Position numbers and translations under genes: made by a program. From contig CAZIZK010000001.1 of the NCBI GenBank assembly GCA_964544225.1, positions 54,856-118,855 on the forward strand: a stretch of DNA of 64,000 nucleotides, written 5' to 3'. Under the pieces are notes generated by a model. It worked only from the letters and a program-made list of their open reading frames with translations. It did not search any database and was not told the DNA's origin. How positions within the stretch are numbered: position 1 is the first letter of the stretch; each line of letters starts with the position of its first letter. This stretch comes from an uncultured Candidatus Saccharibacteria bacterium (GTDB taxonomy: Bacteria; Patescibacteriota; Minisyncoccia; Phycocordibacterales; UBA9973). Below, piece by piece: positions 1 through 41,167 of this stretch.

Positions 1-1114
1 CAAATAATGTATCTTGAGATCTAGGCATTTGAGTATTTTTAAAGTTTTTCATTAACTCAACTTGATCAGGAAAATTTATTTTCTTAACAATTGGATTAGG
101 AAGAATATAAATCTTCATTTTCTCTCTACGACCATATACATGAGCTGAAACAATTGCAGTAAAGTCTGCCGAATCTTTAGAAGAGATGGCGAGGTCAACT
201 CCTGCATAAGTGCCACGGTATGCTTTATGTTTTGTCCCAGGTAATTCATCATAATACTGAATCCACTCAGGATAAATAACTTGATCGTCGCTTGGAATAA
301 TACGAAGTAAATATTCTCGTTGCCATGATATTTCACTAGCAACTTTCATTTTTTCATCCTCTATATCTTTCATATCTGAGTATTTCCCAGGCCATAAACA
401 GACATTATCTTCGTCGAGTAGTGGGTATTGTTTAAAGACACCTTTTGATCGTTTATTTTCTATATCATCCCTTATTCTCATGAGTAATGAATCTTCATGT
501 AAAAGGTTACCAACAGCAATAAGTCTGGTTTTGCGATCTCCTGCAGGTATTACTTCTCCATATAGCCATTGATATGTCTTATCTCGTCCCTCACGAGTTT
601 TAGTTGATTGTACGTCTTCCACGTCGTCACAGATAATCAAATCAGGTCTATGCTCATTATGTCTTATTCCTCGTATACTTTGCTCTGTTGAGGCAACAGT
701 AATACGAGCATTACTTTTATTAAACACCAATGAATATGAACCCCACTCATCACTCTGTTCTTGGAATGGTCCTAAATCTCTTTTTAGCAGATCATTACCC
801 TCAAGCTCACTTCGAATATTCATCATGTGTTGTTTTGCTTGTGTTCTTGTCTGACAGAAAATTAAACAGAACTTCTTTTGTTGTTTGCCAAGTATTGCCC
901 ATATTGGGTATGCAGTTGTAACCATTGTGGATTTACCAGATCCACGGAAAGCAACAACATATAAATTCTCTGTATCACTATTTTCTAAATGATGGATTAT
1001 TTCTTTCTGAAAATCTGCTGTCTCGTATTTTACATAATGGGCATAATAGAAATGGAAGAAATATAAGAAACTATCTCTTGTTATAGATGTTCTTACAAGT
1101 CTATCTTTCATCAT
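1..1114 (-). CDS. Phage terminase large subunit (TerL); start ATG-ATG at 1114..1109, C-terminus lies beyond the left window edge, so it is absent from the ORF track
   Basis: Manual minus-strand translation gives MMKDRLVRTSITRD...ENLYVVAFRGSGKSTMVTTAYPIW (Walker A) and ...RPDLIICDDVEDVQS (Walker B/ATPase coupling), typical of T4 gp17-like terminases. The open frame runs through position 1. Confidence 0.7.
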   Translation of the reverse strand, partial: MMKDRLVRTSITRDSFLYFFHFYYAHYVKYETADFQKEIIHHLENSDTENLYVVAFRGSGKSTMVTTAYPIWAILGKQQKKFCLIFCQTRTQAKQHMMNIRSELEGNDLLKRDLGPFQEQSDEWGSYSLVFNKSNARITVASTEQSIRGIRHNEHRPDLIICDDVEDVQSTKTREGRDKTYQWLYGEVIPAGDRKTRLIAVGNLLHEDSLLMRIRDDIENKRSKGVFKQYPLLDEDNVCLWPGKYSDMKDIEDEKMKVASEISWQREYLLRIIPSDDQVIYPEWIQYYDELPGTKHKAYRGTYAGVDLAISSKDSADFTAIVSAHVYGRREKMKIYILPNPIVKKINFPDQVELMKNFKNTQMPRSQDTLF

Positions 1115-1142
1115 CCTGTTTACTAAACCGTTTTCAATGATT

Positions 1143-1559
1143 TTATTCATGGCTTTTCTTTTCGTTAATATTTTTAATAGATTTCGACTTAGTAATTGAG
1201 GCAAGCTTAAGTGCCTGTTTTACTATTTTTGCTTGTGATGGAGTAAGTTCTTCTTTGTCTTCTTTTGTTGTGATTTCTATCTTGTCTCGGTAGTTATCAT
1301 TTCTGTGTTTTAACCAAAAAGAAATTGCTGACCAATTTTTCTCTTTGATCATTGTCAGGAGTTGGCTTTCACTCATATCATTCACAAAGGCAACACCCTC
1401 AGACATAGCTTTATCCATTTTGGCAGAGAAAGATTTATCATCTTTTTTCCAACGATATACACTATTTCTAGATACTCCTGTTTTCTCACATGCTACTTGC
1501 ACGATAGGAACTTTTTTCAATTCTTCAAAGAATTGATCTTGTGATTTATTTTTCTTCAT
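1143..1559 (-). CDS. Terminase small subunit-like HTH DNA-binding protein
   Basis: 138 aa with N-terminal HTH (ACEKTGVSRNSVYRWKK), lysine-rich, immediately upstream of terL in the same orientation (TerS-TerL order). Confidence 0.45.
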   Translation of the reverse strand: MKKNKSQDQFFEELKKVPIVQVACEKTGVSRNSVYRWKKDDKSFSAKMDKAMSEGVAFVNDMSESQLLTMIKEKNWSAISFWLKHRNDNYRDKIEITTKEDKEELTPSQAKIVKQALKLASITKSKSIKNINEKKSHE

Positions 1560-2829
1560 AAGATTTTATCTGAGCTTTTTTACCAGTAAATAATTCATAA
1601 CGTTTTATAATCAAATCACAAAACTTTGGCTCTAGCTCTAAGCCATACACTCTTCGACCTAATTGTTCACCTGCAAGGAGAGTGCTACCTGAACCCAAGA
1701 AACTATCTAAGATTATGTCATTTGGCTTTGTACAGCGTTTTATAGCCTTTTCATGGAGGGTTATAGGCTTAGAAGTTGCATGTTCATAATCTTTAGCGGA
1801 AAGTCTTTTAGCAGTCCAAATCTCAAGAAAGTCATCGACTTGTGCTACAAGTTCATTTCCTGTTCCGAATTCTTTATTTAATACCTCATTAAGGGTTGTT
1901 ACTGATTCAGCAAGATAAGGTCGTCCACGAATACCATACACCGCAGGTTCATATGCTTTATTGCAGAATATTTTAGGGACAGGATTTTGCGAATTTTTTA
2001 GCCATAGGCATACTCGTTTATTAGATATACCAAGTGATCTGTATATATCCTGAATTAATCCTATGTAGACTTGATCACAATAATAGAAAACGTGCGTACT
2101 CGGATTAGATACAGTAAGTGCCGATTCTAAACTTTCTCGAATAAATGTTTTATATTCTTCAAAAGTTCTAGAATCTTTTACACTTCCGCCATATTCTTTA
2201 TTTCCACCAATCCCGCCATCATAGTCTATATCTAAGTTATACACTGGGTCTGAATAGATCATTGAAACTTTCTCTTCGCCTAATAACCTTTTTAGATTTT
2301 CAGGTTTAGTTGAATCACCACAAAGAATTTTGTGTTTCCCGAGAATAATAATATCTCCTAATTTTGTTTTAGGTTCCTTTATTTTCTTTAATTCCTTTTC
2401 AACATCGAAAGAATCATTTTTAACTTCTGCATCTTCATCCCAAAATTTTGCAATTTCCATATCTTCAAATCCTGCGAGTTGAAGAAGCTCCATATCAAAA
2501 GATTTAAGAGCTTCAAAGTCCCAAGACCCACCCAATTTATTTGAGGCAATAAGATATTGTTTGGATTCTGATTCTGTGAGTTTACGATTAGGTATCCTTA
2601 CATCAATTATTTCTTCTCCACGATCTAATAGTTGCAAAGCCCTTATTCTTTGATGTCCTGCTAGTATCATTCCATCACTATCAATAGCAGGAATCTCGAC
2701 TAAATTATATTTCTGCAAACTTTTCTTAATATCTGACATTTGCTTGTCAGAAATTTTACGAGGATTGATCTTTTGAGGAATAAGATCGTTAACCTTTCTT
2801 TGGACCGTAGTCCATATGAGTTTACTCAT
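1546..2829 (-). CDS. ParB-like nuclease domain fused to beta-class DNA N6-adenine/N4-cytosine methyltransferase
   Basis: N-terminal ParB-like segment (ILAGHQRIRAL), MTase motif IV-like SDPVYN (DPPY variant) and motif I LDSFLGSGST. Paralogous to 26189..27457. Confidence 0.75.
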   Translation of the reverse strand: MSKLIWTTVQRKVNDLIPQKINPRKISDKQMSDIKKSLQKYNLVEIPAIDSDGMILAGHQRIRALQLLDRGEEIIDVRIPNRKLTESESKQYLIASNKLGGSWDFEALKSFDMELLQLAGFEDMEIAKFWDEDAEVKNDSFDVEKELKKIKEPKTKLGDIIILGKHKILCGDSTKPENLKRLLGEEKVSMIYSDPVYNLDIDYDGGIGGNKEYGGSVKDSRTFEEYKTFIRESLESALTVSNPSTHVFYYCDQVYIGLIQDIYRSLGISNKRVCLWLKNSQNPVPKIFCNKAYEPAVYGIRGRPYLAESVTTLNEVLNKEFGTGNELVAQVDDFLEIWTAKRLSAKDYEHATSKPITLHEKAIKRCTKPNDIILDSFLGSGSTLLAGEQLGRRVYGLELEPKFCDLIIKRYELFTGKKAQIKSYEEK

Positions 2830-2984
2830 ATTATTTTATTAATAAATTTAATAAAATGTATAGAGATAGAAAAAGCCTATTCCGTACACGAAATAAATAA
2901 AAGTCCGATATAACTTCGATCTATTTCTTGCGCGGAATAGGCATGGCTTTTAGGGCGCTACACTACTCGCTTTTTACTACGCAC

Positions 2985-3431
2985 TTATATTTTACCAACC
3001 TGTTCTTGTTTTTCAAGTCTTCTCAATATGCGCCTACCTTTTTTGCTATCCATGAATTCAACTGTATCTTTTCCAAGGAAAACTGGTAATCCTTTTGGCT
3101 TTCTTATAAAAACCCTTTTTCCTTGTTCTCTGTAACGTTGAATCAAAGGCAACATTTCATCTGGATTAAAGATTGGCATTGAAAAAATCACTGTATTGTT
3201 TTCTAAAACCCTGGCATGGTTATTAGGAAAAGTGATTCTCCCAGGTTGATTTGCTTCTATGGAATGTTCAATAGTTTTACTCATCGATTGAGTAACTCGT
3301 GCATTAGTATGGAGTTGAAAGTCAGTCAACTCAATAATAATATCGCCATTGCACGGATCATGAATCGCTGGATGTATTACTAATTTTTCTTCCATACCTA
3401 GAGTATATAATAGGGTGGTGTAAAATGTCAA
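2985..3431 (-). CDS. Hypothetical protein (probable true start at internal MEEKLVIH), divergent from the repressor gene
   Basis: ORF of 148 aa with no recognisable motif. It sits between the MTase and the repressor. Confidence 0.35.
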   Translation of the reverse strand: MTFYTTLLYTLGMEEKLVIHPAIHDPCNGDIIIELTDFQLHTNARVTQSMSKTIEHSIEANQPGRITFPNNHARVLENNTVIFSMPIFNPDEMLPLIQRYREQGKRVFIRKPKGLPVFLGKDTVEFMDSKKGRRILRRLEKQEQVGKI

Positions 3432-3465
3432 ATCTTTATTGCAAAATCGTTTAAACTATGCTATA

Positions 3466-3481
3466 CTGTATCTATGCACAT
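3466..3481 (+). promoter_or_regulatory. Candidate SOS-box-like operator CTGT-N8-ACAT overlapping the repressor start codon
   Basis: ctgtatctatgcacat is one mismatch from the gamma-proteobacterial CTGT-N8-ACAG; tatact (-10-like) lies just upstream. This is a weak call. Confidence 0.2.
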
Positions 3482-4112
3482 AATACAAAAACAACTTTTA
3501 GACTTAATAGCGACACATGAGGACTTTGGATCTTATAGCCTTAGGAAGATAGCTGAAATGGTTGGAGCCAAGGGAAAACCCCAAACTGCCAAATATCACT
3601 TACAACAGCTTGAGAAAGATGGACTAATTCAATTAAACCTTGAGGCTGGAATCATAAAGCTAGTTAAAAGAGGTTATGCTAAAGCTTCTACTAGCCCTAT
3701 CTACTCCCTACCAATAGTGGGATCTGCTAATTGTGGTCCTGCTACTATATTTGCAGAACAGAATGTTGATCAATATTTAAAAATATCTTCATCAATGCTA
3801 CCAAGAAACAAAAGTAATCTGTATGCCCTTATTGCTGATGGAGATTCAATGAATAATGCAGAGGTTGAAGGAAAAACTATTAAAAGCGGAGACTTCGTTT
3901 TGGTCGATAGTGAATATAAGAACTATAAGACTGGTGATATCGTAGTTGCTGTTATAGACAACATGGCAACTATAAAAAGATTCCGAGAAGATAAACCCAA
4001 TAATAGAATTATCCTTGAGGCTGATTCAACAGAAAAATATCTCCCTATATTTATTCATGAAGGTGACAATTTCTTATTAAGTGGAAAAGTAGTCGGTATT
4101 ATTAAAAGTTAA
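3474..4112 (+). CDS. LexA/phage CI-like repressor (N-terminal winged HTH plus C-terminal S24 self-cleaving peptidase)
   Basis: GDSM serine nucleophile and the lysine in TIKRF match the LexA Ser/Lys dyad. The N-terminal segment is HTH-like. It is the first gene of a six-gene operon with 5-23 nt gaps. Confidence 0.8.
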   Translation: MHIIQKQLLDLIATHEDFGSYSLRKIAEMVGAKGKPQTAKYHLQQLEKDGLIQLNLEAGIIKLVKRGYAKASTSPIYSLPIVGSANCGPATIFAEQNVDQYLKISSSMLPRNKSNLYALIADGDSMNNAEVEGKTIKSGDFVLVDSEYKNYKTGDIVVAVIDNMATIKRFREDKPNNRIILEADSTEKYLPIFIHEGDNFLLSGKVVGIIKS

Positions 4113-4125
4113 TTTATAAAAATAT

Positions 4126-4368
4126 ATGTCAAATTATCATGTAACAAACCCAAAAGGTTCAAATGATTGGAAAGTAATAAAAGAAAAAGCAGAAAGAGCT
4201 TCTGTAATAGTAAGCACTCAAAGAGAAGCGGAGAAAATAGCAAAAGAATTATCAGGTAATTCTGGTGGTGGAGAGGTTGTAATCCATAAACCAAACGGTG
4301 GTCCAATAAGAGATAAAGATACTGTAGCCCCAGGTCGAGAAAGTTCAGTTATAGACAAAAAACATTAA
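4126..4368 (+). CDS. Small DUF2188-like protein
   Basis: 80 aa; the pattern YHV..DWKV...A.RASV..T..EA..IA...A...GGGEV.IH resembles DUF2188. Confidence 0.35.
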   Translation: MSNYHVTNPKGSNDWKVIKEKAERASVIVSTQREAEKIAKELSGNSGGGEVVIHKPNGGPIRDKDTVAPGRESSVIDKKH

Positions 4369-4385
4369 AAAATAAATATAAAATT

Positions 4386-4757
4386 ATGAAAAGAATATTT
4401 ATTAGTTTTGCGATTGAAGATAAATTATATAGAGATTTTCTTGTTGGACAATCTAAGAAAGAAGAATCCCCGTTTGAATTTGTTGATATGTCAGTAAAAG
4501 AACCCTGGAAATCTGATTGGAAAGATAAATGTTATTCAAAAATAATAGGTTGTGATGGAGTAATTGGTTTAATAAGCAAAAATACTCCTAAGGCTTCTGG
4601 AGAATTATTTGAGTTAGAATGTGCATATGACGAAAATGTGCCTGTGATGCTAATGTATATTAATGATGATAGACCTGCTCTTCCGTCATTTTTAAACAGC
4701 AAAAGAGTAAACATATGGAGTTGGAGTAACTTAAAATCTTTTATTAGTAACCTTTAA
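4386..4757 (+). CDS. TIR-like domain protein (DUF1863 / ThsB-like)
   Basis: Begins with RIFISFAIED... (FISF plus an acidic residue) and has a conserved Glu in ELECA, as in MTH538/ThsB-type TIR-like domains. Length 123 aa. Confidence 0.5.
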   Translation: MKRIFISFAIEDKLYRDFLVGQSKKEESPFEFVDMSVKEPWKSDWKDKCYSKIIGCDGVIGLISKNTPKASGELFELECAYDENVPVMLMYINDDRPALPSFLNSKRVNIWSWSNLKSFISNL

Positions 4758-4762
4758 TATAT

Positions 4763-5731
4763 ATGCGTAAAGCTCTAATTGTTGGTATTAATAATTACCC
4801 AGGTAATCCACTCAAAGGGTGTATAAATGATGCATCATCATTTAAAACTGTTATTGAGAAAAACGGTGACGGATCACCTAATTTTTCTACAAGGCTAGAA
4901 ACTGATGTTCCTACAAAATCTCAACTCAAAACAATGCTAAAGGAATTATTTGAGGGTGATAGTGACATAGCTTTATTTTATTTTTCAGGACATGGATCTT
5001 TTAATGAATTTGGTGGTTATGTAGTTACCCCAGATCATCAAGAAAACGATGAGGGAGTTTCTATGGATGAAATTTTATTGCTTGCCAATAAGTCAAAAGC
5101 AAAAGATAAAATTATTATATTAGACTGCTGTCATTCAGGTGCATTTGGTTCTCCTGCAAGTACTGGTGGTACATCTTGTCAGATAATCGAAGGTGTTGTT
5201 GTTCTAACTGCAAGCAAATCCAGTGAAAGTGCTATTGAAATTAATGGTCATGGTATTTTCACAAATTTATTGATTGATGCATTGCAAGGTGGTGCAGCTG
5301 ATCTTCGTGGTCATATAACCCCTGGTAGTGTTTATGCATATATAGATCAAGCATTAGGACCTTGGGATCAAAGACCAGTATTTAAGACAAATGTAACTAG
5401 GTTTACATCTCTAAGAACAATAAATCCACAAGTTCCAACTGAAACACTTAGAAAAATAACTGAGTATTTTCAAACAGCTGAGCAAGATTACTCTCTAAAT
5501 CCATCTTATGAAGACACGAATTCGGAAGATATTAAACATTCTATTATTGAACCTCTCGCTAAAACAGAAAATGTTGCAGTATTTAAAGATTTGCAAAAGT
5601 TCCAGAGTGTAGGTTTGGTTATTCCAGTAGACGCACCTTACATGTATTTTGCTGCGATGGAGTCAAAATCATGTAAATTAACAGCACTTGGTTATCATTA
5701 TTGGAGACTTGTTAAAGACGGTAAAATATAA
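4763..5731 (+). CDS. Caspase-like cysteine peptidase (Peptidase C14 / metacaspase-like) with a C-terminal domain of unknown function
   Basis: ALIVGINNY...NDA...FYFSGHG (catalytic His) and IIILDCCHSG (catalytic Cys), the canonical caspase-fold dyad order. The remaining ~150 aa are unassigned. Confidence 0.7.
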   Translation: MRKALIVGINNYPGNPLKGCINDASSFKTVIEKNGDGSPNFSTRLETDVPTKSQLKTMLKELFEGDSDIALFYFSGHGSFNEFGGYVVTPDHQENDEGVSMDEILLLANKSKAKDKIIILDCCHSGAFGSPASTGGTSCQIIEGVVVLTASKSSESAIEINGHGIFTNLLIDALQGGAADLRGHITPGSVYAYIDQALGPWDQRPVFKTNVTRFTSLRTINPQVPTETLRKITEYFQTAEQDYSLNPSYEDTNSEDIKHSIIEPLAKTENVAVFKDLQKFQSVGLVIPVDAPYMYFAAMESKSCKLTALGYHYWRLVKDGKI

Positions 5732-5740
5732 TAATTAATA

Positions 5741-6394
5741 ATGCGGTCTTTGGAACAAGTAGCAAGAAAAATAAACTTCCATATTGAAAAGAAAAAACCA
5801 CCAGTTATTAATGAAAAATGGATTAAAGTAAATTCTCCAGCTTCTTATAAATTCATAATTGAAAATTCTATTGATTGGGACACGGTAACAATAAATCTTG
5901 ATAAGTCATACCAAGGAAAGTGGAATAAGTGTTCTAAAAGAAAAAGATACTTAGATCAAGAATTTTATAAAGATGAGGAAGAACTAAATCAAATATTAAA
6001 TACTCATAAAGATAAACTTTATACTTTTGTAAGTAGAATAAACAAAGAAGATGAACTTGTTTGTGACAGAATAAGTATTTTATTAGTTAGACTAGCTCAA
6101 AAAGGTAATACTCTTGCTTTGATAGAAATTAAAAGCCTATATGTTTTTATAATAGATAAGTGGCTAGAAGAAAGTAAATATTTAAAAAGATGGCGTGGCT
6201 ATGAAGAGGAATTAGTAGCACTACTAGAGAGGTGTATTTTCAGATATAGATACTCTGGTACATTTATTGGTTATTTATATAGAACTCTCCAGTTAAGTGC
6301 TTTAGCTTTAGAGCCATTAGAAGCATATTCACTAAATGACAAGGTCTTTGATGGGAATAAAACCAGAATAGACTTTATATCCTGTGAAAATTAA
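5741..6394 (+). CDS. Hypothetical lysine-rich protein in the repressor/TIR/caspase operon
   Basis: 217 aa, no recognisable motifs; 9 nt after the caspase gene. Confidence 0.4.
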   Translation: MRSLEQVARKINFHIEKKKPPVINEKWIKVNSPASYKFIIENSIDWDTVTINLDKSYQGKWNKCSKRKRYLDQEFYKDEEELNQILNTHKDKLYTFVSRINKEDELVCDRISILLVRLAQKGNTLALIEIKSLYVFIIDKWLEESKYLKRWRGYEEELVALLERCIFRYRYSGTFIGYLYRTLQLSALALEPLEAYSLNDKVFDGNKTRIDFISCEN

Positions 6395-6417
6395 CAGGCT
6401 TTTGATACAATAAACCA

Positions 6418-6921
6418 ATGACTATACTAATTATTTTTGTAATCTTAATGGCGGTTGTTTTTATTGTTTTAAAGAAATTTTTCCCAGATATATTTAATGG
6501 CGAGGAGAAAGTAATTAAGTCTCCATATAATTACAAAAAGAAAGACTTTTTAATGAGTCGTGCTGAACATGAGTTTTTTGATATTCTCATTGAGGTTGTA
6601 GGAAATCAATATTATGTATTTCCACAAATACATCTATCAACTATTTTAGATAATAAGGTTGTGGGACAAAACTGGAGAGGAGCATTCCGTCATATTGATG
6701 AAAAGTCAGTTGATTTCGTTATTTGTGATAAAGCATATATCAAACCAATTCTTGCTATTGAACTTGATGATAAAACACACGAAAGAGAAGACAGAAAAGG
6801 ACGAGATGGAGAAGTAGAACGTATTCTTAAAGAATCAGGTCTGTCTCTTTTAAGGTTTGGTAACAATGGGAGCTTTAATAAAGAAGAAATAAAGCGTTTG
6901 ATCTTAGAGAAATTAAGGTAG
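6418..6921 (+). CDS. Membrane-anchored DUF2726-family protein (PD-(D/E)xK-like nuclease fold)
   Basis: N-terminal TM helix followed by MSRAEHEFFDIL...YYVFPQIHL...VDFVICDK...ILAIELDDKTH...RD..VERIL.ESGL.LLRF, which matches the DUF2726 core. Confidence 0.6.
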   Translation: MTILIIFVILMAVVFIVLKKFFPDIFNGEEKVIKSPYNYKKKDFLMSRAEHEFFDILIEVVGNQYYVFPQIHLSTILDNKVVGQNWRGAFRHIDEKSVDFVICDKAYIKPILAIELDDKTHEREDRKGRDGEVERILKESGLSLLRFGNNGSFNKEEIKRLILEKLR

Positions 6922-7160
6922 GTTTTATATAGAAAAGTTACAGTTGAATGTAACCTTTAACCTCAATCCCGTGTCACTTTTGTCACTTTTCTAATTCGCA
7001 CGAGATACGTCGATTTGATATAATAAAATTATTGGAAATAACGTTACAGGGCTTGTCAGTGAAAAGTCCTAACACGAGTGTCCCCGCATTGACAACCTGT
7101 TAGTTTTGATGACCCATTTAGTTATGTACTAAGTGCGACCCACAAAGCTTCATGTTGCAG

Positions 7161-7191
7161 AAAAAAGAACGACGGTTGTCGTTCTTTTTTT
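7161..7191. terminator. Bidirectional intrinsic terminator
   Basis: aaaaaa-GAACGAC-ggtt-GTCGTTC-ttttttt lies between the convergent genes ending at 6921 (+) and 7200 (-). Confidence 0.8.
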
Positions 7192-7199
7192 GCAAATAA

Positions 7200-8444
7200 T
7201 TAATGCATATCCATAGATTCAGGCATGCTCGTACTACTTTTAATTTCCTTAAATATACTTGGATTTTCATCTCCTGTTACATCAAGTACTGCCCAAGCAC
7301 CTTTATTCATTCTTGCTAGTGCGTGATCTACAAGTAAATATTTACCTGGAACATCAACAGTGAATTCTACAATACTCGCTCCACCAGGAAGTACAGCGGT
7401 TGCTTGTGTATTGTGTTCCATCGCACCACCTATACTTGCATTTGGATACACGGTATCAAAAATCTCACCAATTACATGGAAAGAAGAGATCAGATTTACT
7501 CCACCATTGCCGACATACATACGAATTTTATCACCAACTTTTGCTTGCATTCGTGGTGTTGTTTCGATACGGCCATTGAAAGTTACATAGTTAGGATGAC
7601 CATCGAGAAGGGCATCAGGATCAAATGGCACCAACCCTTTTTTACCAAGCTGTCCAATGGTGTATAGCTCTCCTTGCATAACATAAAATTCTTTATCGAC
7701 TTCTGTAAACCCTTCTTTTGGATCAACTAAAATCATTCCATATTGTCCATGTGAATTGTGTGTAGAAACATTTGGCGTTGCGCAGTGATAAATATAAAGA
7801 CCTGGGTTTAATGCTTTCCATCTGAATGTTTTTGTTTCTCCAGGTGCTACATGAGTAACTGACGCTCCACCTCCTGGACCTGTAACTGCGTGTAGATCTA
7901 TGTTGTGGTCATGTAGACTTGATGGGTCATTTGTCAGTGTTAATTCTACCGTATCCCCCTCGCGTATACGAAGCATTGGACCAGGAACTTGTTTGTTGTA
8001 TGTCCAGTAGTTGAAATAAATTCCAGGAGATATCTCTCCGAGGACTTCTTGTGCAGTCAAACTAATACGCACAATACCGTCTGCGTCAGGTGCTTGTGGT
8101 TTTTCTGGAACAGCTGTCGGATCTGCACCAATATCTGCGACTTTATCGAAACGATTTTCATATCTAAAAAAGTCTATAATTTTAGCAAATGGGATAGATG
8201 GAGGGAGTCCACCCGGAGCGTGTGAATGCACAAATGCTGGCATAGCAAAATCAGGAGGATAAGTTTTGTTTGCCACTAGTCCTGTGAAAAAAGAAATCAC
8301 AATTAGAGCCACTGGAATGTAAAGCCATTTTTGCTTAAAAATTGAATGGAAATGACCTTGTTTCCATATATATCGCACAATTATGACAAAGGCTATAAAA
8401 CCTACTATTCCAGATATCATTTCAAAAATAAGGTATTTAAACAT
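7200..8444 (-). CDS. Copper-containing nitrite reductase (NirK)-like two-domain multicopper oxidase, membrane-anchored
   Basis: N-terminal TM helix; cupredoxin-type ligand motifs HDHNIDLH, YIYHCATP (Cys) and HGQYGM (Met). Confidence 0.55.
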   Translation of the reverse strand: MFKYLIFEMISGIVGFIAFVIIVRYIWKQGHFHSIFKQKWLYIPVALIVISFFTGLVANKTYPPDFAMPAFVHSHAPGGLPPSIPFAKIIDFFRYENRFDKVADIGADPTAVPEKPQAPDADGIVRISLTAQEVLGEISPGIYFNYWTYNKQVPGPMLRIREGDTVELTLTNDPSSLHDHNIDLHAVTGPGGGASVTHVAPGETKTFRWKALNPGLYIYHCATPNVSTHNSHGQYGMILVDPKEGFTEVDKEFYVMQGELYTIGQLGKKGLVPFDPDALLDGHPNYVTFNGRIETTPRMQAKVGDKIRMYVGNGGVNLISSFHVIGEIFDTVYPNASIGGAMEHNTQATAVLPGGASIVEFTVDVPGKYLLVDHALARMNKGAWAVLDVTGDENPSIFKEIKSSTSMPESMDMH

Positions 8445-8665: not shown

Positions 8666-9211
8666 ATGAATACTATACAAAAGAATTGGTTTAAATATGT
8701 TGTAGGATTTGTTGCATGTCTTCTGATTCGACTTATTCCATTTCGCCCTCCAAATATTGAGCCAATACTCGCAACACAAATGCCATTCTCTAAAGCGTAC
8801 GGGAAGATTGCAGGATTTTTATTCGCATTTTTAAGTATGGTTATATTTGACATTATAACTGGGAAAGTCGGTATGTGGACTTTTATAACAGCTAGTGCTT
8901 ATGGTCTTTTGGGGTTATGGGCATCAATATATTTTAAAAACAAAAATAATAGCTCATGGAATTACGCAAAATTTGCTGTCATGGGAACATTGGCTTTTGA
9001 TATTGTTACAGGACTTTCTGTTGGACCTCTATTTTTTCACCAACCATTTATGGAAGCATTGATCGGGCAGATTCCTTTTACGGCACTTCATTTAATTGGG
9101 AATATTGGTTTTGCAGTAGTATTTAGCCCTCTCTTGTATAAATATGTTATTGAAAATAAAAAGTTTGAAAGTGAATCACTTATAGCAATCTTTAACCCGA
9201 AACAAGCATGA
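8666..9211 (+). CDS. Small polytopic membrane protein, possibly an ECF-transporter substrate-specific (S) component
   Basis: 181 aa, about five or six hydrophobic helices, directly upstream of nrdJ and the cobalamin adenosyltransferase. Substrate unknown. Confidence 0.35.
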   Translation: MNTIQKNWFKYVVGFVACLLIRLIPFRPPNIEPILATQMPFSKAYGKIAGFLFAFLSMVIFDIITGKVGMWTFITASAYGLLGLWASIYFKNKNNSSWNYAKFAVMGTLAFDIVTGLSVGPLFFHQPFMEALIGQIPFTALHLIGNIGFAVVFSPLLYKYVIENKKFESESLIAIFNPKQA

Positions 9212-11490
9212 AAAATACCCTAAACAGAAAAAAATATTTCTCACTTGTACATATACAAAAACGTGACGGAACAATAGTTCCCTTTGATCAAAAACGCATT
9301 GCTCGAGCAATTTTTCGTGCGATGCAATCAGTAAAAGAGGGTGATGAGATACATGCGGAAAAAGTAATGCTGAAAGTGTTAGATTCACTTCTTGAACTCA
9401 AAAAAGAAAACAAAACAAAACAGTTTATTCCTCATGTTGAAACAATACAAGACATTGTAGAAAATGAACTTGTTGCTTCAAGTTTTCTACAAACCGCAAA
9501 AGCATATATCCTTTATCGAAAAGAAAGATCGTTGGTACGAGAAAGATCTGGTTTTGTGCCAGAAAAGGTTAAAGAACTTGTTATGGAAGGTAAAAAGTAT
9601 TTTAGGAATCCTCTAGCTGAATTTGTATACTATCGTACATATGCAAAATGGATAGACGAAGAGGGTCGTCGAGAAACATGGACTGAAACGGTTGGTCGCT
9701 ATGTTGATTTTATGCGCGATAACATAAATGGAAAACTTACGGAATCTGAATATAAAGAAATTCGAGAAACAATTCTAAGTCAAGAATCAATGCCATCTAT
9801 GAGACTTCTGCAATTTGCAGGTAAAGCTACAAGACGAACAAATGTCTGTGCATATAACTGCTCTTTTATTGCTCCAAGAAATTTCCAAGACTTTGCTGAA
9901 ATTATGTATATTTCAATGTGCGGAACTGGTGTTGGTTGGTCAGTAGAAAGTGAAAATATTCAAGCACTCCCACAAGTCAAAAAACAAAAAAACACGAAGG
10001 TCTCTACTTTAGTTATTCCTGACAGTAAGGAAGGTTGGGCAGATGCATTTTCACTTGGACTTAAAACATGGTTTGATGGAGATGATATTGTTTTTGATTA
10101 TTCTCTCATTCGTCCTGCCGGATCACGCCTAAAGACTATGGGTGGCAAAAGTTCTGGACCCGCTCCGCTTCAATCATTACTTTTATTTACTCGCGAACGT
10201 GTACTAAGTCGCCAAGGTAGACATTTATCAAACTTAGATGCACATGACATCATTTGTAAAATTGGTGAATGTGTCGTGGCGGGTGGTGTTCGAAGAAGTG
10301 CCATGATATCCCTTTCTGATTTAGACGATGAAATGATTCGTGATTCAAAGAAAGGTCAATTTTATATTTCGGAAGGACAAAGAATGCTTGCAAACAATTC
10401 TGCTGTATATCTTTCAAAACCCAGCACAACTGAGTTTCTTGATGAATGGGTTGCCTTGATGAAAAGCGGTAGTGGTGAACGAGGTATATTTAATCGTGGA
10501 GGACTTTCTGGAACATTGCCAAAAAGAAGACTTGATCAATTCAAAGGTGGTATATATCCTGCTTGGGGAACAAATCCTTGTGGTGAAATTATTTTGCAAT
10601 CAAAACAATTCTGCAATCTTTCCGAAGTTATCGCAAGAGCAGATGATACTGAAGAGAGTTTGCTCAAAAAAATTCGTATTGCGACAATAATAGGTACTTA
10701 CCAGTCAACACTTACCTATTTCCCATATTTGTCGAAAGAATGGAAAAAGAATTGCGAAAAAGAAAGACTACTTGGGGTGTCTATAACTGGACAATGGGAT
10801 TGTGAGCTTGTTCGTAATGGAGATATATTGGAGAAAATGAAACGAATGGCAATCGAAACAAATAAAAAATACGCAAAACGTTTTGGTGTGGAGCAATCAA
10901 CATGTATCACATGTGTAAAACCTTCAGGAACAGTTTCTCAAACCGTAGATTGCGCTTCAGGTATGCATCCTCGCCATGCACCGTATTATATTCGACGTGT
11001 CCGCATTTCAGCGACAGACGCTTTGTTTAAAATGCTTAAAGATCAAGGAGTGCCGTACTATCCAGAAGTCGGGCAAACCTTCGAAAATGCATCGACCTTT
11101 GTACTTGAATTTCCAGTCAAAGCCCCTGAGGGAGCTATCTGCAAAGATGATGTGGACGCAATTGCACAATTAGAGCATTGGAAAATAGTTAAGCAACATT
11201 TCACTGAACACAATCCTTCTGTAACTGTATCAGTTTCAGACGATGAATGGTTAAAAGTTGCAAATTGGGTTTACCAAAACTGGGATTTAGTCGGTGGATT
11301 ATCATTTCTACCTCGATCAAAACATGTATATCAACTTGCACCGTACGAATCAATTACAAAGGTAAAATATGAGGAAATGAAAAAACGTCTTGGTGATTTA
11401 GATTTTTCTAAAATTGTTACTTATGAAAAAGAAGACGAAACAGAGGTAAAAAAAGAATTAGCTTGTGTTGGAGGACTGTGTGAAATATAA
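9208..11490 (+). CDS. nrdJ: Ribonucleotide reductase, class II (adenosylcobalamin-dependent, NrdJ-like) with N-terminal ATP-cone
   Basis: ATP-cone (VQKRDGTIVPFDQKRIARAI), active-site GTNPCGEI, C-terminal Cys pair CVGGLCEI. No nrdB is nearby and a PduO adenosyltransferase is adjacent. Confidence 0.75.
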   Translation: MKNTLNRKKYFSLVHIQKRDGTIVPFDQKRIARAIFRAMQSVKEGDEIHAEKVMLKVLDSLLELKKENKTKQFIPHVETIQDIVENELVASSFLQTAKAYILYRKERSLVRERSGFVPEKVKELVMEGKKYFRNPLAEFVYYRTYAKWIDEEGRRETWTETVGRYVDFMRDNINGKLTESEYKEIRETILSQESMPSMRLLQFAGKATRRTNVCAYNCSFIAPRNFQDFAEIMYISMCGTGVGWSVESENIQALPQVKKQKNTKVSTLVIPDSKEGWADAFSLGLKTWFDGDDIVFDYSLIRPAGSRLKTMGGKSSGPAPLQSLLLFTRERVLSRQGRHLSNLDAHDIICKIGECVVAGGVRRSAMISLSDLDDEMIRDSKKGQFYISEGQRMLANNSAVYLSKPSTTEFLDEWVALMKSGSGERGIFNRGGLSGTLPKRRLDQFKGGIYPAWGTNPCGEIILQSKQFCNLSEVIARADDTEESLLKKIRIATIIGTYQSTLTYFPYLSKEWKKNCEKERLLGVSITGQWDCELVRNGDILEKMKRMAIETNKKYAKRFGVEQSTCITCVKPSGTVSQTVDCASGMHPRHAPYYIRRVRISATDALFKMLKDQGVPYYPEVGQTFENASTFVLEFPVKAPEGAICKDDVDAIAQLEHWKIVKQHFTEHNPSVTVSVSDDEWLKVANWVYQNWDLVGGLSFLPRSKHVYQLAPYESITKVKYEEMKKRLGDLDFSKIVTYEKEDETEVKKELACVGGLCEI

Positions 11491-22244: not shown

Positions 22245-22447
22245 ACAATTTAATAACAGACCTAACCCCTCAATTTATTGAGGATATGGTCGCAAAATCC
22301 GTCCAAAGTAAAGAACTCCTAGTCAGAGTCTACTTTGGACGGTCATATCTGGAAACGGGTATGGGTATACCTCACGGGGTATATCGGATCTGGCTAGGAG
22401 CTTTTTGCTACCTATACGGTCCTTCATAACAAAACCGTCCAAAGTTT
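22245..22447 (+). other. Structured 5' leader or candidate ncRNA with an extended -10 (tggtataat), a perfect 12-bp inverted repeat and a direct repeat of ccgtccaaagt
   Basis: ccgtccaaagta-N20-tactttggacgg; a second ccgtccaaagt lies 10 nt before the ATG of the 22448 gene; cctcaa-ttta-ttgagg hairpin. Confidence 0.3.
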
Positions 22448-36689: not shown

Positions 36690-36694
36690 TATTG

Positions 36695-36768
36695 TCCGCC
36701 TTCATGGATTCGAACCATGGACCCCAGAGGTATAAGCTCTGTGCTCTAACCAACTGAGCTAAAGGCGG
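36695..36768 (-). tRNA. tRNA with anticodon UAU (reads AUA; tRNA-Ile2-type), 74 nt, no encoded CCA
   Basis: Minus strand CCGCCTT-TA-GCTC-AGTTGGTTA-GAGC-A-CAGAG-CTTATAC-CTCTG-GGGTC-CATGG-TTCGAAT-CCATG-AAGGCGG-A. Canonical U8, A14, G18G19, U33, A37 and the T-loop TTCGAAT are present; the 1:72 pair is C:G. Confidence 0.7.
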
Positions 36769-40761: not shown

Positions 40762-40771
40762 TAAATACATG

Positions 40772-41161
40772 GGGGTGACGGGCTTCGATGGGGGCTGTTA
40801 TCTTTTATGTGCGTGTAAAGTACTCAGGAATCTTTTAAAACTTCTTGGAAAAGACTAAGTGCAAACAAAGTCGCTTCAGTAAAGTCACCTTACGCTTTTG
40901 CGTTTAGTGGCTCTGCTCTCTCATTCGCTTAATTTAAGCCAATGGAGTGTCTATGCTATCTACATCCGATAAATAGTATGGGCATAATTAATCGGGTTAC
41001 GAAACAATTACCGCTTGAATTTGTTTCCGACAATTAAAAGCTCGGTGATATAGTGTTTTGTCTGTTCTCTAGCTATATCATTTAAAACCAATGAACATAC
41101 TACACACGTAGACTCATATAAGAGCGTCCTTCACATGGCGGTTCAACTCCGCCCACTTCCA
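40772..41161 (+). ncRNA. ssrA: tmRNA (ssrA), about 390 nt
   Basis: 5' GGGGGUGACGGGCUUCGAUGGGGG (tRNA-like 5' half), 3' GGCGG-UUCAACU-CCGCC T-arm and CACUUCC-A acceptor strand giving a G3:U70 wobble. An internal tag reading frame GCA AAC AAA ... GCT CTC TCA TTC GCT TAA encodes a tag ending ALSFA. Confidence 0.85.
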
Positions 41162-41167
41162 CAATTT

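What the first reader, a model, noticed from the sequence alone, without database searches (positions are those of the whole stretch)
3474..6921. Six-gene operon headed by a LexA/CI-like S24 repressor and carrying TIR-like, caspase-like and DUF2726-nuclease genes, next to phage packaging genes
Six plus-strand genes separated by only 5-23 nt run as one block. They are flanked by a divergent promoter region (3432-3473, with an SOS-box-like CTGT-N8-ACAT overlapping the first ATG) and a strong bidirectional terminator (7161-7191). The genes are the S24 repressor, a DUF2188 protein, a TIR-like protein, a caspase-like peptidase, a hypothetical protein and the DUF2726 protein. A self-cleaving LexA/CI-type repressor as gene 1 implies derepression by RecA* during DNA damage or phage induction. 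The downstream genes combine a TIR-like fold (NAD+-depleting or signal-generating in Thoeris-type systems), a caspase-fold protease with an intact His/Cys dyad, and a membrane-anchored PD-(D/E)xK-like nuclease. That combination is what an inducible abortive-infection or defence module would contain. I do not recognise this gene order as an experimentally characterised system. Its position right next to terL/terS and a phage-type MTase suggests phage-encoded superinfection exclusion or a chromosomal defence island at a prophage boundary.
Basis: partly seen in the sequence, partly recalled or inferred. Interest (0 to 1): 0.85.

Follow-up and report, generated by a model that had tools for sequence, protein, structure and literature searches.

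The report
Type IV Thoeris on a mobile element

Summary
All six plus-strand ORFs, their 5–23 nt gaps, the domain calls, the neighbouring terS/terL/methylase genes and the bidirectional terminator are confirmed. The "SOS box" is not: it is no commoner than chance and is not conserved.

Genes 3 and 4 are homologues of the experimentally validated type IV Thoeris pair from Pseudomonas sp. 1-7.
- TIR: 39% identity, E 1e-32, catalytic Glu conserved.
- Caspase: 45% identity over the full length, E 1e-103, His/Cys conserved.
- A TIR gene lies next to the caspase in 73 of 80 related loci.

The other four genes are not part of that system.
- The S24 repressor belongs to the backbone of a Patescibacteria mobile element (hyp136, ParB-methylase, terS, terL, serine integrase). 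That backbone is present in 32 of 34 informative loci.
- Behind the repressor, sister elements carry CBASS, PDC-M48 or other TIR systems instead. Only 3 of 37 carry the caspase.
- DUF2188 is one of three small genes that alternate in the position right after the repressor.
- The 217-aa protein has a sigma-factor region-2-like fold and follows unrelated cargo elsewhere.
- DUF2726 is rare extra cargo.

Verdict: a new member of a known system. The modest interest lies in the carrier element.

The parts
1..1150 (-). 5' part (383 codons) of a terminase large subunit gene, cut by the left edge of the window; part of the mobile-element backbone.
   Evidence: The reading frame is open from ATG 1150 to base 1. 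The full-length homologue L003:2201-3682 hits phrog_38, terminase large subunit, at 2.7e-74. It is 70-90% identical at DNA level to Patescibacteria loci.
1143..1559 (-). Terminase small subunit-like HTH protein (138 aa); backbone.
   Evidence: It hits PHROG terS families at 3e-9 to 1e-4 and Pfam HTH_Tnp_1_2 at 8.5e-6. It is conserved next to terL and the methylase in the genome, viral and metagenome loci.
1546..2829 (-). ParB-N domain fused to an N6/N4 DNA methyltransferase (427 aa); backbone.
   Evidence: Pfam N6_N4_Mtase 3.2e-28; phrog_498 2.3e-84 and ParB-like phrog_620 8e-24.
2985..3395 (-). hyp136, the first gene of the leftward operon; no family; backbone gene transcribed divergently from the repressor.
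   Evidence: It is called as a 136-aa gene on an identical contig. It has no Pfam, PHROG or PADLOC hit. Homologues lie directly upstream of S24 in many loci.
3396..3473 (.). Divergent control region with two back-to-back promoter-like sites. On the - strand: TTGACA 3431-3426, 18-nt spacer, TATACT 3407-3402, then 6 nt to ATG 3395. On the + strand: TTGCAA 3439-3444, 17-nt spacer, TATACT 3462-3467, then 6 nt to ATG 3474. Both transcripts would be leaderless. It also contains the conserved motif GTGTAAAATGTCAA (3418-3431), a candidate operator that overlaps the leftward -35.
   Evidence: The promoter scan scores 11/12 and 9/12. There is an inverted repeat at 3393-3413 / 3456-3476. The TGTA(A/C)AATGT core is present in 30/31 distinct homologous upstream regions. 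A -10-like hexamer lies 6-9 nt before the ATG in 27/31. The exact 14-mer occurs once in the window.
3474..4112 (+). LexA/CI-like repressor (winged HTH plus S24 peptidase, 212 aa) with an intact self-cleavage site C87-G88 and Ser125/Lys168 dyad; the repressor of the mobile element.
   Evidence: Pfam S24 9e-21. TIGR00498 lexA scores 85 bits, below the 111-bit cut-off. It aligns over its full length with E. coli LexA structures at E 1e-9. It lies next to the backbone in 32/34 informative loci.
4126..4368 (+). DUF2188 protein (80 aa), occupying the small-gene position right after the repressor; function unknown.
   Evidence: Pfam DUF2188 3e-18; PADLOC candidate PDC-S16 3.5e-14. In sister elements the same position holds DUF2188, a DUF3892-like protein or a 68-71-aa protein, whatever the cargo.
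4386..4757 (+). ThsB, the type IV Thoeris TIR protein (123 aa); predicted catalytic Glu76.
   Evidence: It is 39% identical to validated PsTIR over its full length, E 1e-32, and E76 aligns with E79. Pfam ThsB_TIR gives E 0.036. A TIR gene lies next to the caspase in 73/80 loci.
4763..5731 (+). ThsE, the type IV Thoeris caspase-like protease effector (322 aa): a C14 domain with His77/Cys123 plus the family's C-terminal domain, the presumed N7-cADPR sensor.
   Evidence: It is 45% identical to PsCaspase end to end, E 1e-103, and C123 aligns with C129. It is 67-70% identical to the caspases in two strains listed in Table S1 of the discovery paper (L028, L049). It matches phrog_18397 over its full length at 5e-86.
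5741..6394 (+). 217-aa protein of a small family (61 homologues) with a sigma-factor region-2-like helical domain; not specific to Thoeris; probably a transcription-related gene of the element.
6418..6921 (+). DUF2726 protein (167 aa) with an N-terminal hydrophobic segment, in the PD-(D/E)xK-type family; rare extra cargo.
   Evidence: Pfam DUF2726 1.5e-28, DUF559 4.6e-5, REase_MTES_1575 1.7e-4. No PADLOC hit. It is present in only 1 of 80 caspase loci.
6933..7092 (+). Conserved non-coding element that closes the cargo region. It contains a GTTACAG-N5-CTGTAAC hairpin, the repeat GTCACTTTTGTCACTTTT, and a promoter-like TTCGCA-18-TATAAT at 6995-7024. It is probably the attP-derived right end of the element, since homology with the permuted relative L002 stops at about 7092.
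   Evidence: blastn and alignment with L002, L003, L009, L027 and L068. The core 16-mer GTGTCACTTTTGTCAC occurs exactly once, downstream of the cargo, in 17 loci. In L002 it abuts the 3' end of the serine integrase gene. Only weak RNA covariation was found.
7155..7195 (.). Bidirectional intrinsic terminator between the end of the element and the convergent host gene (7200-8444, - strand).
   Evidence: It folds at -21.0 and -20.9 kcal/mol, z -5.7 and -7.1, with 0/200 shuffles as stable. It lies outside the region shared with sister elements.

Best explanation
The window carries the right-hand part of an integrated, phage-derived mobile element of a Patescibacteria (CPR) genome.

Its backbone is a leftward operon, hyp136 - ParB/methylase - terS - terL. 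Relatives add a large serine integrase, which here would lie off the window. A rightward operon, transcribed divergently from it, is headed by the element's LexA/CI-like S24 repressor. Behind the repressor lies a position for one small gene (here DUF2188) and then a cargo region. That region is closed by a conserved ~160-nt end element.

In this copy the cargo is a type IV Thoeris system, ThsB (4386-4757) plus ThsE (4763-5731). It is followed by a sigma-2-like protein that recurs in these elements and by a rare DUF2726 nuclease-family gene.

Mechanism, inferred from the characterised homologues: on phage infection the TIR protein ThsB (Glu76) converts NAD+ into the signal N7-cADPR. The signal binds the C-terminal domain of the caspase-like ThsE (His77/Cys123). 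Once activated, ThsE cleaves many cell proteins after arginine and aborts the infection.

Regulation, also inferred: the cargo is co-transcribed with the repressor from a leaderless promoter, so it is expressed at a basal level while the element is quiescent. Self-cleavage of S24 stimulated by RecA* on DNA damage would derepress the packaging operon and probably raise cargo expression too.

Shown here: homology, catalytic residues, gene linkage statistics and the architecture of the element. Inferred: signal chemistry, protease activation, co-transcription, operator identity and the RecA* response.
For: Type IV Thoeris:
- The TIR is 39% identical to PsTIR (E 1e-32), with E76 aligned to E79.
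- The caspase is 45% identical to PsCaspase over 1-322 against 1-328 (E 1e-103), with C123 aligned to C129, H77 invariant and the C-terminal domain conserved.
- The two genes are 5 nt apart.
- A TIR gene lies within 700 nt of the caspase in 73/80 loci across Bacteria and Archaea.
- Two of those loci come from strains listed as type IV Thoeris in the discovery paper, which also lists eight CPR genomes.

Element and cargo model:
- 32/34 S24 loci with enough upstream sequence have hyp136, the methylase or terS lying divergently upstream.
- Only 5/37 have a TIR and 3/37 the caspase downstream.
- Alternative cargo behind S24 includes HNH-SAVED plus cyclase CBASS, patatin plus cyclase CBASS, PDC-M48, TIR plus 8xMP, and TIR-AGS_C.
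- The methylase-terS-terL-(cargo)-serine integrase core is seen in about 20 IMG/VR contigs with no portal or capsid gene after terL.
- A conserved end element bounds the cargo in 17 loci.
- The cargo region has lower G+C, 30-32% against 35-40%.

Repressor:
- It aligns over its full length with LexA, and the cleavage site and Ser/Lys dyad are intact.
- The conserved motif and the leaderless -10/ATG geometry are present in 27-30 of 31 homologous upstream regions.
Against: - No expression, cleavage or phage data exist for this locus.
- The Pfam TIR hit on its own is weak (E 0.036).
- The integrase and the left end of the element are outside the window, so integration and completeness of this copy are not shown.
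- The candidate operator has no clear second half-site in this copy. A perfect GTGTAAAA-N10-TTTTACAC palindrome is found in only 2 loci.
- Counts of promoter-like sites in the region are not above chance: 22 found against 20.5 expected.
- In two relatives (L004, L006), S24-TIR-caspase occurs without the terminase block within 6 kb. In three relatives S24 is divergent from the TIR-caspase pair. A more specific S24-Thoeris link is therefore not excluded.
Confidence: 0.8

Rival explanations
1. One reading: all six genes form one integrated, previously uncharacterised inducible abortive-infection system. In it the S24 repressor, DUF2188, TIR, caspase, the 217-aa protein and the DUF2726 nuclease work together.
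For: The genes share a strand, have 5-23 nt gaps, and no strong internal terminator is found. The near-identical relative L002 keeps S24, TIR, caspase, hyp217 and DUF2726 in the same order.
Against: Across 80 caspase loci only the TIR co-occurs (73/80). S24 is in 14, hyp217 in 3, DUF2188 in 2 and DUF2726 in 1. S24 homologues head CBASS and other systems instead. hyp217 homologues follow R-M or NACHT genes. The validated Pseudomonas system needs only the two genes.
Confidence: 0.05
2. The S24 protein is the host's own LexA, and the downstream genes are ordinary members of the chromosomal SOS regulon, as in the lexA-dinF arrangement. No mobile element is involved.
For: It aligns over its full length with LexA. 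JGI names a 90%-cluster member 'SOS-response transcriptional repressor LexA'. In L004 a related gene lies next to a gene that looked like a photolyase from its N-terminal sequence; this was not tested with any family search.
Against: It scores below the NCBIfam lexA equivalog cut-off, 85 against 111 bits. In 32/34 loci it lies next to hyp136, the methylase, terS, terL and the serine integrase. The gene content downstream is hypervariable. The proposed SOS box is at chance level and not conserved.
Confidence: 0.03
3. The Thoeris identity is the same, but the cargo is kept essentially silent by S24 autorepression. It is switched on only when RecA* triggers S24 cleavage, making this a strictly DNA-damage-inducible Thoeris analogous to CapH/CapP-controlled CBASS.
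For: S24 has all the self-cleavage motifs. CapH/CapP show that cleavable repressors drive CBASS expression on DNA damage, and that DUF2188 and DUF3892 genes recur beside such regulators. The same two small families follow S24 here. S24 keeps its link to TIR-caspase in either orientation in some CPR loci.
Against: The repressor gene is the first gene of the same operon, so the operon must be transcribed while repression is being maintained. No operator overlapping the rightward -10 or the start codon is conserved. [quoted passage not shown]
Confidence: 0.25
4. The flanking terL/terS/methylase block is just a decaying prophage remnant, and the defence genes form a chromosomal island at its edge. 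It is not an active, compact satellite-like element.
For: No integrase, capsid or replication gene is visible in the window. The element cannot be followed past the left edge.
Against: The same compact gene set, in the same order and with intact ORFs, recurs in dozens of diverged Patescibacteria genomes, IMG/VR contigs and metagenome contigs. It has a conserved end element. The relative L002 is arranged as a circular permutation with the integrase next to that end element, beside a rolling-circle Rep gene.
Confidence: 0.15

Closest known systems
Type IV Thoeris (ThsB TIR + ThsE caspase-like protease; Pseudomonas sp. 1-7 and E. coli 328 systems, Rousset et al. 2024/2025)
   Same: It is a two-gene TIR-then-caspase operon. 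There is full-length homology to both validated proteins (39% and 45% identity). The catalytic Glu, His and Cys are conserved, as is the C-terminal domain of the effector. The family spreads across phyla by horizontal transfer and is already recorded in Parcubacteria.
   Different: The host is a CPR bacterium. The pair sits inside an operon headed by an S24 repressor on a terminase-bearing element, with extra genes on both sides. No biochemical or phage data exist for this copy. The Pseudomonas pair has none of the flanking genes.
CapH/CapP-regulated CBASS, and the related ImmR/ImmA and DdrO/IrrE modules (Lau et al. 2022)
   Same: A cleavable repressor of mobile-element type sits next to signalling-based defence operons. 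DUF2188 and DUF3892 small proteins recur beside the regulator. DNA damage is the likely input (for the same small families here).
   Different: Here a single self-cleaving S24 (LexA-type) protein stands in for the HTH repressor plus separate metallopeptidase. The regulator is usually the first gene of the cargo operon rather than divergent from it. Its tight link is to the element backbone, not to one defence family.
Defence hotspots of temperate phages and satellites (lambda cI-rexAB; P2/P4 hotspots; PICI-type satellites) - from general knowledge, not tested here
   Same: Variable anti-phage cargo sits at a fixed position bounded by conserved backbone. It lies next to, and is probably co-expressed with, the immunity repressor. 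The S24 mRNA is predicted to be leaderless, as cI mRNA from P_RM is.
   Different: The backbone consists of a ParB-methylase, terS, terL and a large serine integrase, with no capsid, portal, primase or AlpA genes seen. The host range is Patescibacteria. No helper phage is known.
LexA / lambda CI / UmuD family of S24 self-cleaving proteins
   Same: An N-terminal winged HTH is joined to an S24 domain. The Ser125/Lys168 dyad is present. The cleavage site aligns with LexA A84-G85 and reads Cys-Gly, as in UmuD (from general knowledge).
   Different: It scores below the lexA equivalog threshold. No recognisable SOS box is present. It is encoded by a mobile element.

Membership tests
Type IV Thoeris | [quoted passage not shown] | tested here: met
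   4386-4757 and 4763-5731 lie on the same strand with a 5-nt gap. A TIR gene is adjacent in 73/80 homologous loci.
Type IV Thoeris | TIR (ThsB) homologous to a validated ThsB, with the catalytic glutamate | tested here: met
   39% identity, E 1e-32, full length against PsTIR; window E76 aligns with PsTIR E79, whose E79Q mutant loses defence.
Type IV Thoeris | Caspase-like effector (ThsE) with the His/Cys dyad and the family-specific C-terminal domain | tested here: met
   45% identity, E 1e-103, residues 1-322 against 1-328 of PsCaspase; C123 aligns with C129, whose C129A mutant loses defence; H77 is invariant; the C-terminal 140 residues are aligned and conserved.
Type IV Thoeris | Meets the detection rule of the discovery paper: caspase profile plus TIR_2 or ThsB Pfam hit at i-E <= 0.1, at most one gene apart | tested here: met
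   ThsB_TIR gives E 0.036 over residues 5-95. The rule is quoted. The caspase profile itself was not available; homology to its seed protein was used instead.
Type IV Thoeris | The TIR produces N7-cADPR, which activates the protease | not testable with these tools
   This needs LC-MS or the protease reporter assay.
Type IV Thoeris | Confers phage resistance by abortive infection | not testable with these tools
   No cultured host or phage is available for this CPR lineage. A heterologous assay would be needed.
LexA (orthologous SOS repressor) | Scores above the curated lexA equivalog threshold | tested here: not met
   TIGR00498 scores 85.2 bits against a cut-off of 110.95.
LexA (orthologous SOS repressor) | Own promoter carries a conserved palindromic SOS box | tested here: not met
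   CTGT-N8-ACAT occurs 2 times against 2.19 expected and is not conserved in relatives.
S24 self-cleaving repressors (LexA/CI/UmuD superfamily) | S24 domain with a Ser/Lys dyad and an Ala/Cys-Gly cleavage site, fused to an N-terminal DNA-binding domain | tested here: met
   Pfam S24 9e-21. The alignment with LexA structures gives C87-G88, S125 and K168. The HTH hits are weak, E 0.005-0.01.
S24 self-cleaving repressors (LexA/CI/UmuD superfamily) | Autoproteolysis stimulated by RecA* | not testable with these tools
   A biochemical assay is required.
Phage satellite / phage-inducible island | Integrase, repressor and packaging-redirection genes, but no structural genes of its own | tested here: inconclusive
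   Relatives show serine integrase, terL, terS, methylase, hyp136 and S24 with no portal or capsid gene after terL. In the window the integrase side is off the edge.
Phage satellite / phage-inducible island | Mobilised and packaged by a helper phage | not testable with these tools
   No helper phage has been identified.
Sigma-70 family (for the 217-aa protein) | Sequence membership in sigma region 2 / region 4 families | tested here: not met
   No Pfam or NCBIfam sigma hit. A profile search of PDB sequences found nothing.
Sigma-70 family (for the 217-aa protein) | Sigma region-2 fold | tested here: inconclusive
   [not shown]
PD-(D/E)xK nucleases (for DUF2726) | Family membership | tested here: met
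   DUF2726 1.5e-28, DUF559 4.6e-5, REase_MTES_1575 1.7e-4. D...ELDDK residues were read from the sequence. Nuclease activity is not tested.

The most novel reading that the evidence does not exclude
The carrier is a previously undescribed class of compact, capsid-less, terminase-encoding integrative elements of Patescibacteria. Their backbone is serine integrase, terL, terS, ParB-methylase and hyp136. Their LexA-like repressor heads a swappable expression site for signalling-based abortive-infection systems: type IV and other Thoeris, and several CBASS types. This would couple these systems to RecA*/DNA-damage sensing through a one-protein analogue of CapH/CapP.
Probability: 0.3. Interest if true: 0.6.

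Novelty: new member of a known kind. Interest (0 to 1): 0.3.

Why it matters
As a defence system the locus adds little. It is one more member of type IV Thoeris, a family with thousands of homologues that is already catalogued in Parcubacteria.

The context is more useful. It shows how ultra-small CPR bacteria acquire and exchange costly abortive-infection systems: as interchangeable cargo behind the repressor of a small phage-derived element.

It also offers a natural set of comparisons. The same S24 repressor, promoter and motif sit in front of Thoeris IV, other TIR systems and CBASS. That set could be used to test whether DNA-damage-responsive repressors of mobile elements generally set the expression level of signalling immunity.

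Tried and rejected
- SOS box. Rejected: the CTGT-N8-ACAT count equals the chance expectation, and it is not conserved in relatives.
- A palindromic operator GTGTAAAA-N10-TTTTACAC. Only 2 of 173 loci have the perfect form, so only the conserved left motif is reported.
- The PDB sequence search with the caspase found only metacaspases (E about 1e-3). The search with the TIR found only a weak 'TIR' chain, 8fz9, at E 0.38. Neither was decisive. The question was settled by retrieving PsTIR from the paper's Table S2 and PsCaspase from the Pseudomonas sp. 1-7 contig.
- The supplements of the Nat Commun 2026 TadIV-1 paper are not held.
- 217-aa protein: Foldseek against the PDB was non-significant, the afdb50 library was unavailable, and a profile against PDB sequences gave nothing.
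- DUF2726 against PDB sequences gave nothing.
- The viral-contig scan with S24 found no relatives.
- RNA structure for the conserved end element: the covariation term is not favourable (+0.56) and only 3 pairs show compensatory change. It is not claimed as a structured RNA.
- Literature searches found no prior description of an S24/LexA link to Thoeris, or of this CPR element.
- DUF2188 as a Thoeris effector, listed as an untested candidate by Yirmiya et al.. Not adopted here, because DUF2188 follows S24 whatever the cargo and accompanies the caspase in only 2/80 loci.

Full report
**Observation**

The six plus-strand ORFs exist exactly as described: 3474-4112, 4126-4368, 4386-4757, 4763-5731, 5741-6394 and 6418-6921. 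The gaps between them are 13, 17, 5, 9 and 23 nt.

- Peptidase_S24 with weak N-terminal winged-HTH hits;
- DUF2188, which is also PADLOC candidate PDC-S16;
- a weak ThsB_TIR match (E 0.036);
- Peptidase_C14, with a full-length match to phrog_18397 at 5e-86;
- no family for the 217-aa protein;
- DUF2726, with weaker DUF559 and REase hits.

To the left, on the minus strand, lie four genes:
- a 136-aa gene of unknown family, whose real start is ATG 3395;
- a ParB-methyltransferase fusion;
- a terS-like gene;
- a terL whose open frame runs off the window at base 1.

The hairpin at 7155-7195 is a convincing bidirectional terminator, at about -21 kcal/mol on both strands with z -5.7 and -7.1.

The 'SOS box' does not hold. 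CTGT-N8-ACAT occurs twice in the window against 2.19 expected. It is already changed in the closest relative and absent from other homologous upstream regions.

**What genes 3 and 4 are**

[quoted passage not shown] The TIR makes N7-cADPR on infection. This activates the protease, which cleaves cell proteins after arginine and aborts the infection. The E79Q mutant of the TIR and the C129A mutant of the caspase both lose defence.

I took PsTIR from Table S2 of that paper. I then recovered the neighbouring PsCaspase from the Pseudomonas sp. 1-7 contig.
- The window's 123-aa protein is 39% identical to PsTIR over its full length (E 1e-32). Its E76 aligns with E79.
- The 322-aa protein is 45% identical to PsCaspase from end to end (E 1e-103). 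This includes the C-terminal domain proposed to sense the signal. C123 aligns with C129, and His77 is invariant.

The caspase family is very large, with more than 7,900 hits at E <= 0.001. It is spread across bacterial phyla and archaea at 54-80% identity.

In 80 genome loci a TIR gene lies within 700 nt of the caspase in 73, and 26 loci have two TIR genes. Two of these loci come from strains listed as type IV Thoeris in Table S1 of the discovery paper: Arenibacter echinorum DSM 23522 and Algoriphagus faecimaris DSM 23095. Their caspases are 70% and 67% identical to the window's. The same table already lists eight Parcubacteria/Nomurabacteria genomes.

Genes 3 and 4 are therefore an ordinary member of a characterised system.

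**What the other four genes are**

In the same 80 loci an S24 gene accompanies the pair in only 14, all of them CPR-type genomes. The 217-aa gene accompanies it in 3, DUF2188 in 2 and DUF2726 in 1.

*S24.* Searching from the S24 side gives the complementary picture. Of 34 metagenome loci with enough upstream sequence, 32 have hyp136, the methylase or terS lying divergently next to S24. Of 37 loci with enough downstream sequence, only 5 have a TIR and 3 the caspase. What follows S24 elsewhere includes:
- HNH-SAVED plus cyclase CBASS;
- patatin plus cyclase CBASS;
- cyclase-AGS_C systems;
- the candidate system PDC-M48;
- TIR plus an 8xMP membrane protein;
- TIR-AGS_C plus a TIR.

*DUF2188.* The position immediately after S24 is usually filled by one of three small proteins, whatever the cargo:
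- DUF2188, as in the window;
- a DUF3892-like protein;
- a 68-71-aa protein with no family.

DUF2188 and DUF3892 have been noted before beside cleavable repressors that control defence operons.

*DUF2726.* This is a rare extra gene of the PD-(D/E)xK type with an N-terminal hydrophobic segment.

**The carrier element**

In related Patescibacteria genomes and IMG/VR contigs the same compact backbone recurs. Its gene order is large serine integrase (phrog_95, 9e-60), terL (phrog_38, 2.7e-74), terS, ParB-methylase and hyp136. S24 and the cargo lie divergent from it. A second variable region lies between terL and the integrase. No portal or capsid gene follows terL.

The cargo region is closed by a conserved non-coding element of about 160 nt, at window 6933-7092. 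Its core 16-mer, GTGTCACTTTTGTCAC, occurs exactly once, downstream of the cargo, in 17 loci.

In the close relative L002 this element abuts the 3' end of the integrase gene, beside a rolling-circle Rep gene. That is the circular permutation expected if the element carries attP next to the integrase. Homology between the window and L002 stops at about 7092. I therefore place the right end of the element at about 7090. This makes the terminator at 7155-7195 a host feature shared with the convergent gene at 7200-8444. The cargo region has lower G+C than the flank, 30-32% against 35-40%.

Whether this is an active satellite-like element or a very well conserved remnant cannot be decided from the window. 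The left end and the integrase are off its edge.

**Regulation**

The S24 protein aligns over its full length with LexA structures (E about 1e-9). It keeps the cleavage site, C87-G88 at the position of LexA A84-G85, and the Ser125/Lys168 dyad. It scores below the lexA equivalog threshold.

The 78-nt divergent region is filled by two back-to-back promoter-like sites. Each has its -10 hexamer exactly 6 nt before the start codon. A -10-like hexamer lies 6-9 nt before the S24 ATG in 27 of 31 distinct homologous upstream regions. This suggests leaderless mRNAs.

The motif GTGTAAAATGTCAA (3418-3431) overlaps the leftward -35. Its core is present in 30 of 31 such regions although the surrounding sequence diverges. 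A clear second half-site is missing in this copy.

My inference is as follows. S24 represses the leftward packaging operon. The cargo is co-transcribed with the repressor and so is expressed while the element is quiescent. Cleavage of S24 driven by RecA* would derepress the element and probably boost the cargo. The experimentally shown precedent is CapH/CapP control of CBASS. None of this is tested for this locus.

**Comparison and novelty**

The TIR-caspase pair meets every sequence-level criterion for type IV Thoeris. Signal chemistry and phage protection cannot be tested here.

The six-gene unit is a mosaic:
- element backbone: S24 and the small gene after it, and perhaps the sigma-2-like gene;
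- one known defence system;
- one rare extra gene.

I rate the finding as a new member of a known kind, with modest interest. The least ordinary reading that remains open is this: the carrier is an undescribed class of terminase-bearing, capsid-less elements of CPR bacteria, and its LexA-like repressor heads an exchangeable site for signalling-based immunity. I found no description of it in the searchable literature. That is weak evidence of novelty.

Noticed in passing
window 1-7092; loci L002-L013, L090-L109, L118-L171: A recurrent compact element of Patescibacteria. Its backbone is serine integrase, terL, terS, ParB-methylase and hyp136, with no portal or capsid genes. It has two variable cargo regions. 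I found no description of it in the searchable literature.
   Followed up: partly
loci L129, L144, L142, L152, L127, L118, L126, L159, L143: Sister elements carry other defence cargo in the same place behind S24: HNH-SAVED and patatin CBASS, PDC-M48, TIR plus 8xMP membrane protein, TIR-AGS_C plus TIR, and TIR plus a 212-aa protein.
   Followed up: partly
window 3418-3431: The motif GTGTAAAATGTCAA overlaps the -35 of the leftward promoter. Its core is conserved in 30/31 distinct homologous upstream regions while the flanks diverge. It is a candidate operator. In a few loci it forms GTGTAAAA-N10-TTTTACAC.
   Followed up: partly
window 3396-3473: Both divergent genes have a TATACT -10 hexamer exactly 6 nt before their ATG and no Shine-Dalgarno sequence. 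This suggests leaderless mRNAs. The geometry is conserved in 27/31 relatives.
   Followed up: partly
window 6933-7092: A conserved non-coding element bounds the cargo. It has a GTTACAG-N5-CTGTAAC hairpin with variable loops, the repeat GTCACTTTTGTCACTTTT, and a promoter-like TTCGCA-18-TATAAT at 6995-7024 reading towards the terminator. It could be the attP arm, a regulatory site or a small RNA gene.
   Followed up: partly
L002 (contig CAIVNB010000013.1, 20,042 nt): This near-identical element is arranged as a circular permutation. The integrase and a rolling-circle Rep gene lie next to the conserved end element, and a SIR2_2-domain gene is added to the cargo. It may be an excised or extrachromosomal form.
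   Followed up: no
the position after S24 in L118-L171; window 4126-4368: Three alternative small proteins fill the position right after the repressor: DUF2188, a DUF3892-like protein, and a 68-71-aa protein with no family. DUF2188 and DUF3892 were previously noted beside CapH/CapP-type regulators.
   Followed up: partly
[not shown]
   Followed up: partly
L005:7946-9148, L006:7946-8353: In some CPR relatives a second, E. coli-type ThsB TIR (PF08937, 1e-15) follows the caspase. In L005 an 8xMP membrane protein comes after that TIR. This looks like a second TIR system stacked on the first.
   Followed up: no
window 22259-22385, 36694-36768, 40771-41164: Rfam and ARAGORN find a LOOT RNA (83.7 bits), a tRNA-Ile(TAT) and a tmRNA elsewhere in the window. 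They are unrelated to the finding.
   Followed up: no
window 7200-8444 (-) and 9208-11490 (+): The host genes just beyond the element look, from reading the translations only, like a copper-containing nitrite reductase and a class II ribonucleotide reductase. This was not tested with any tool.
   Followed up: no
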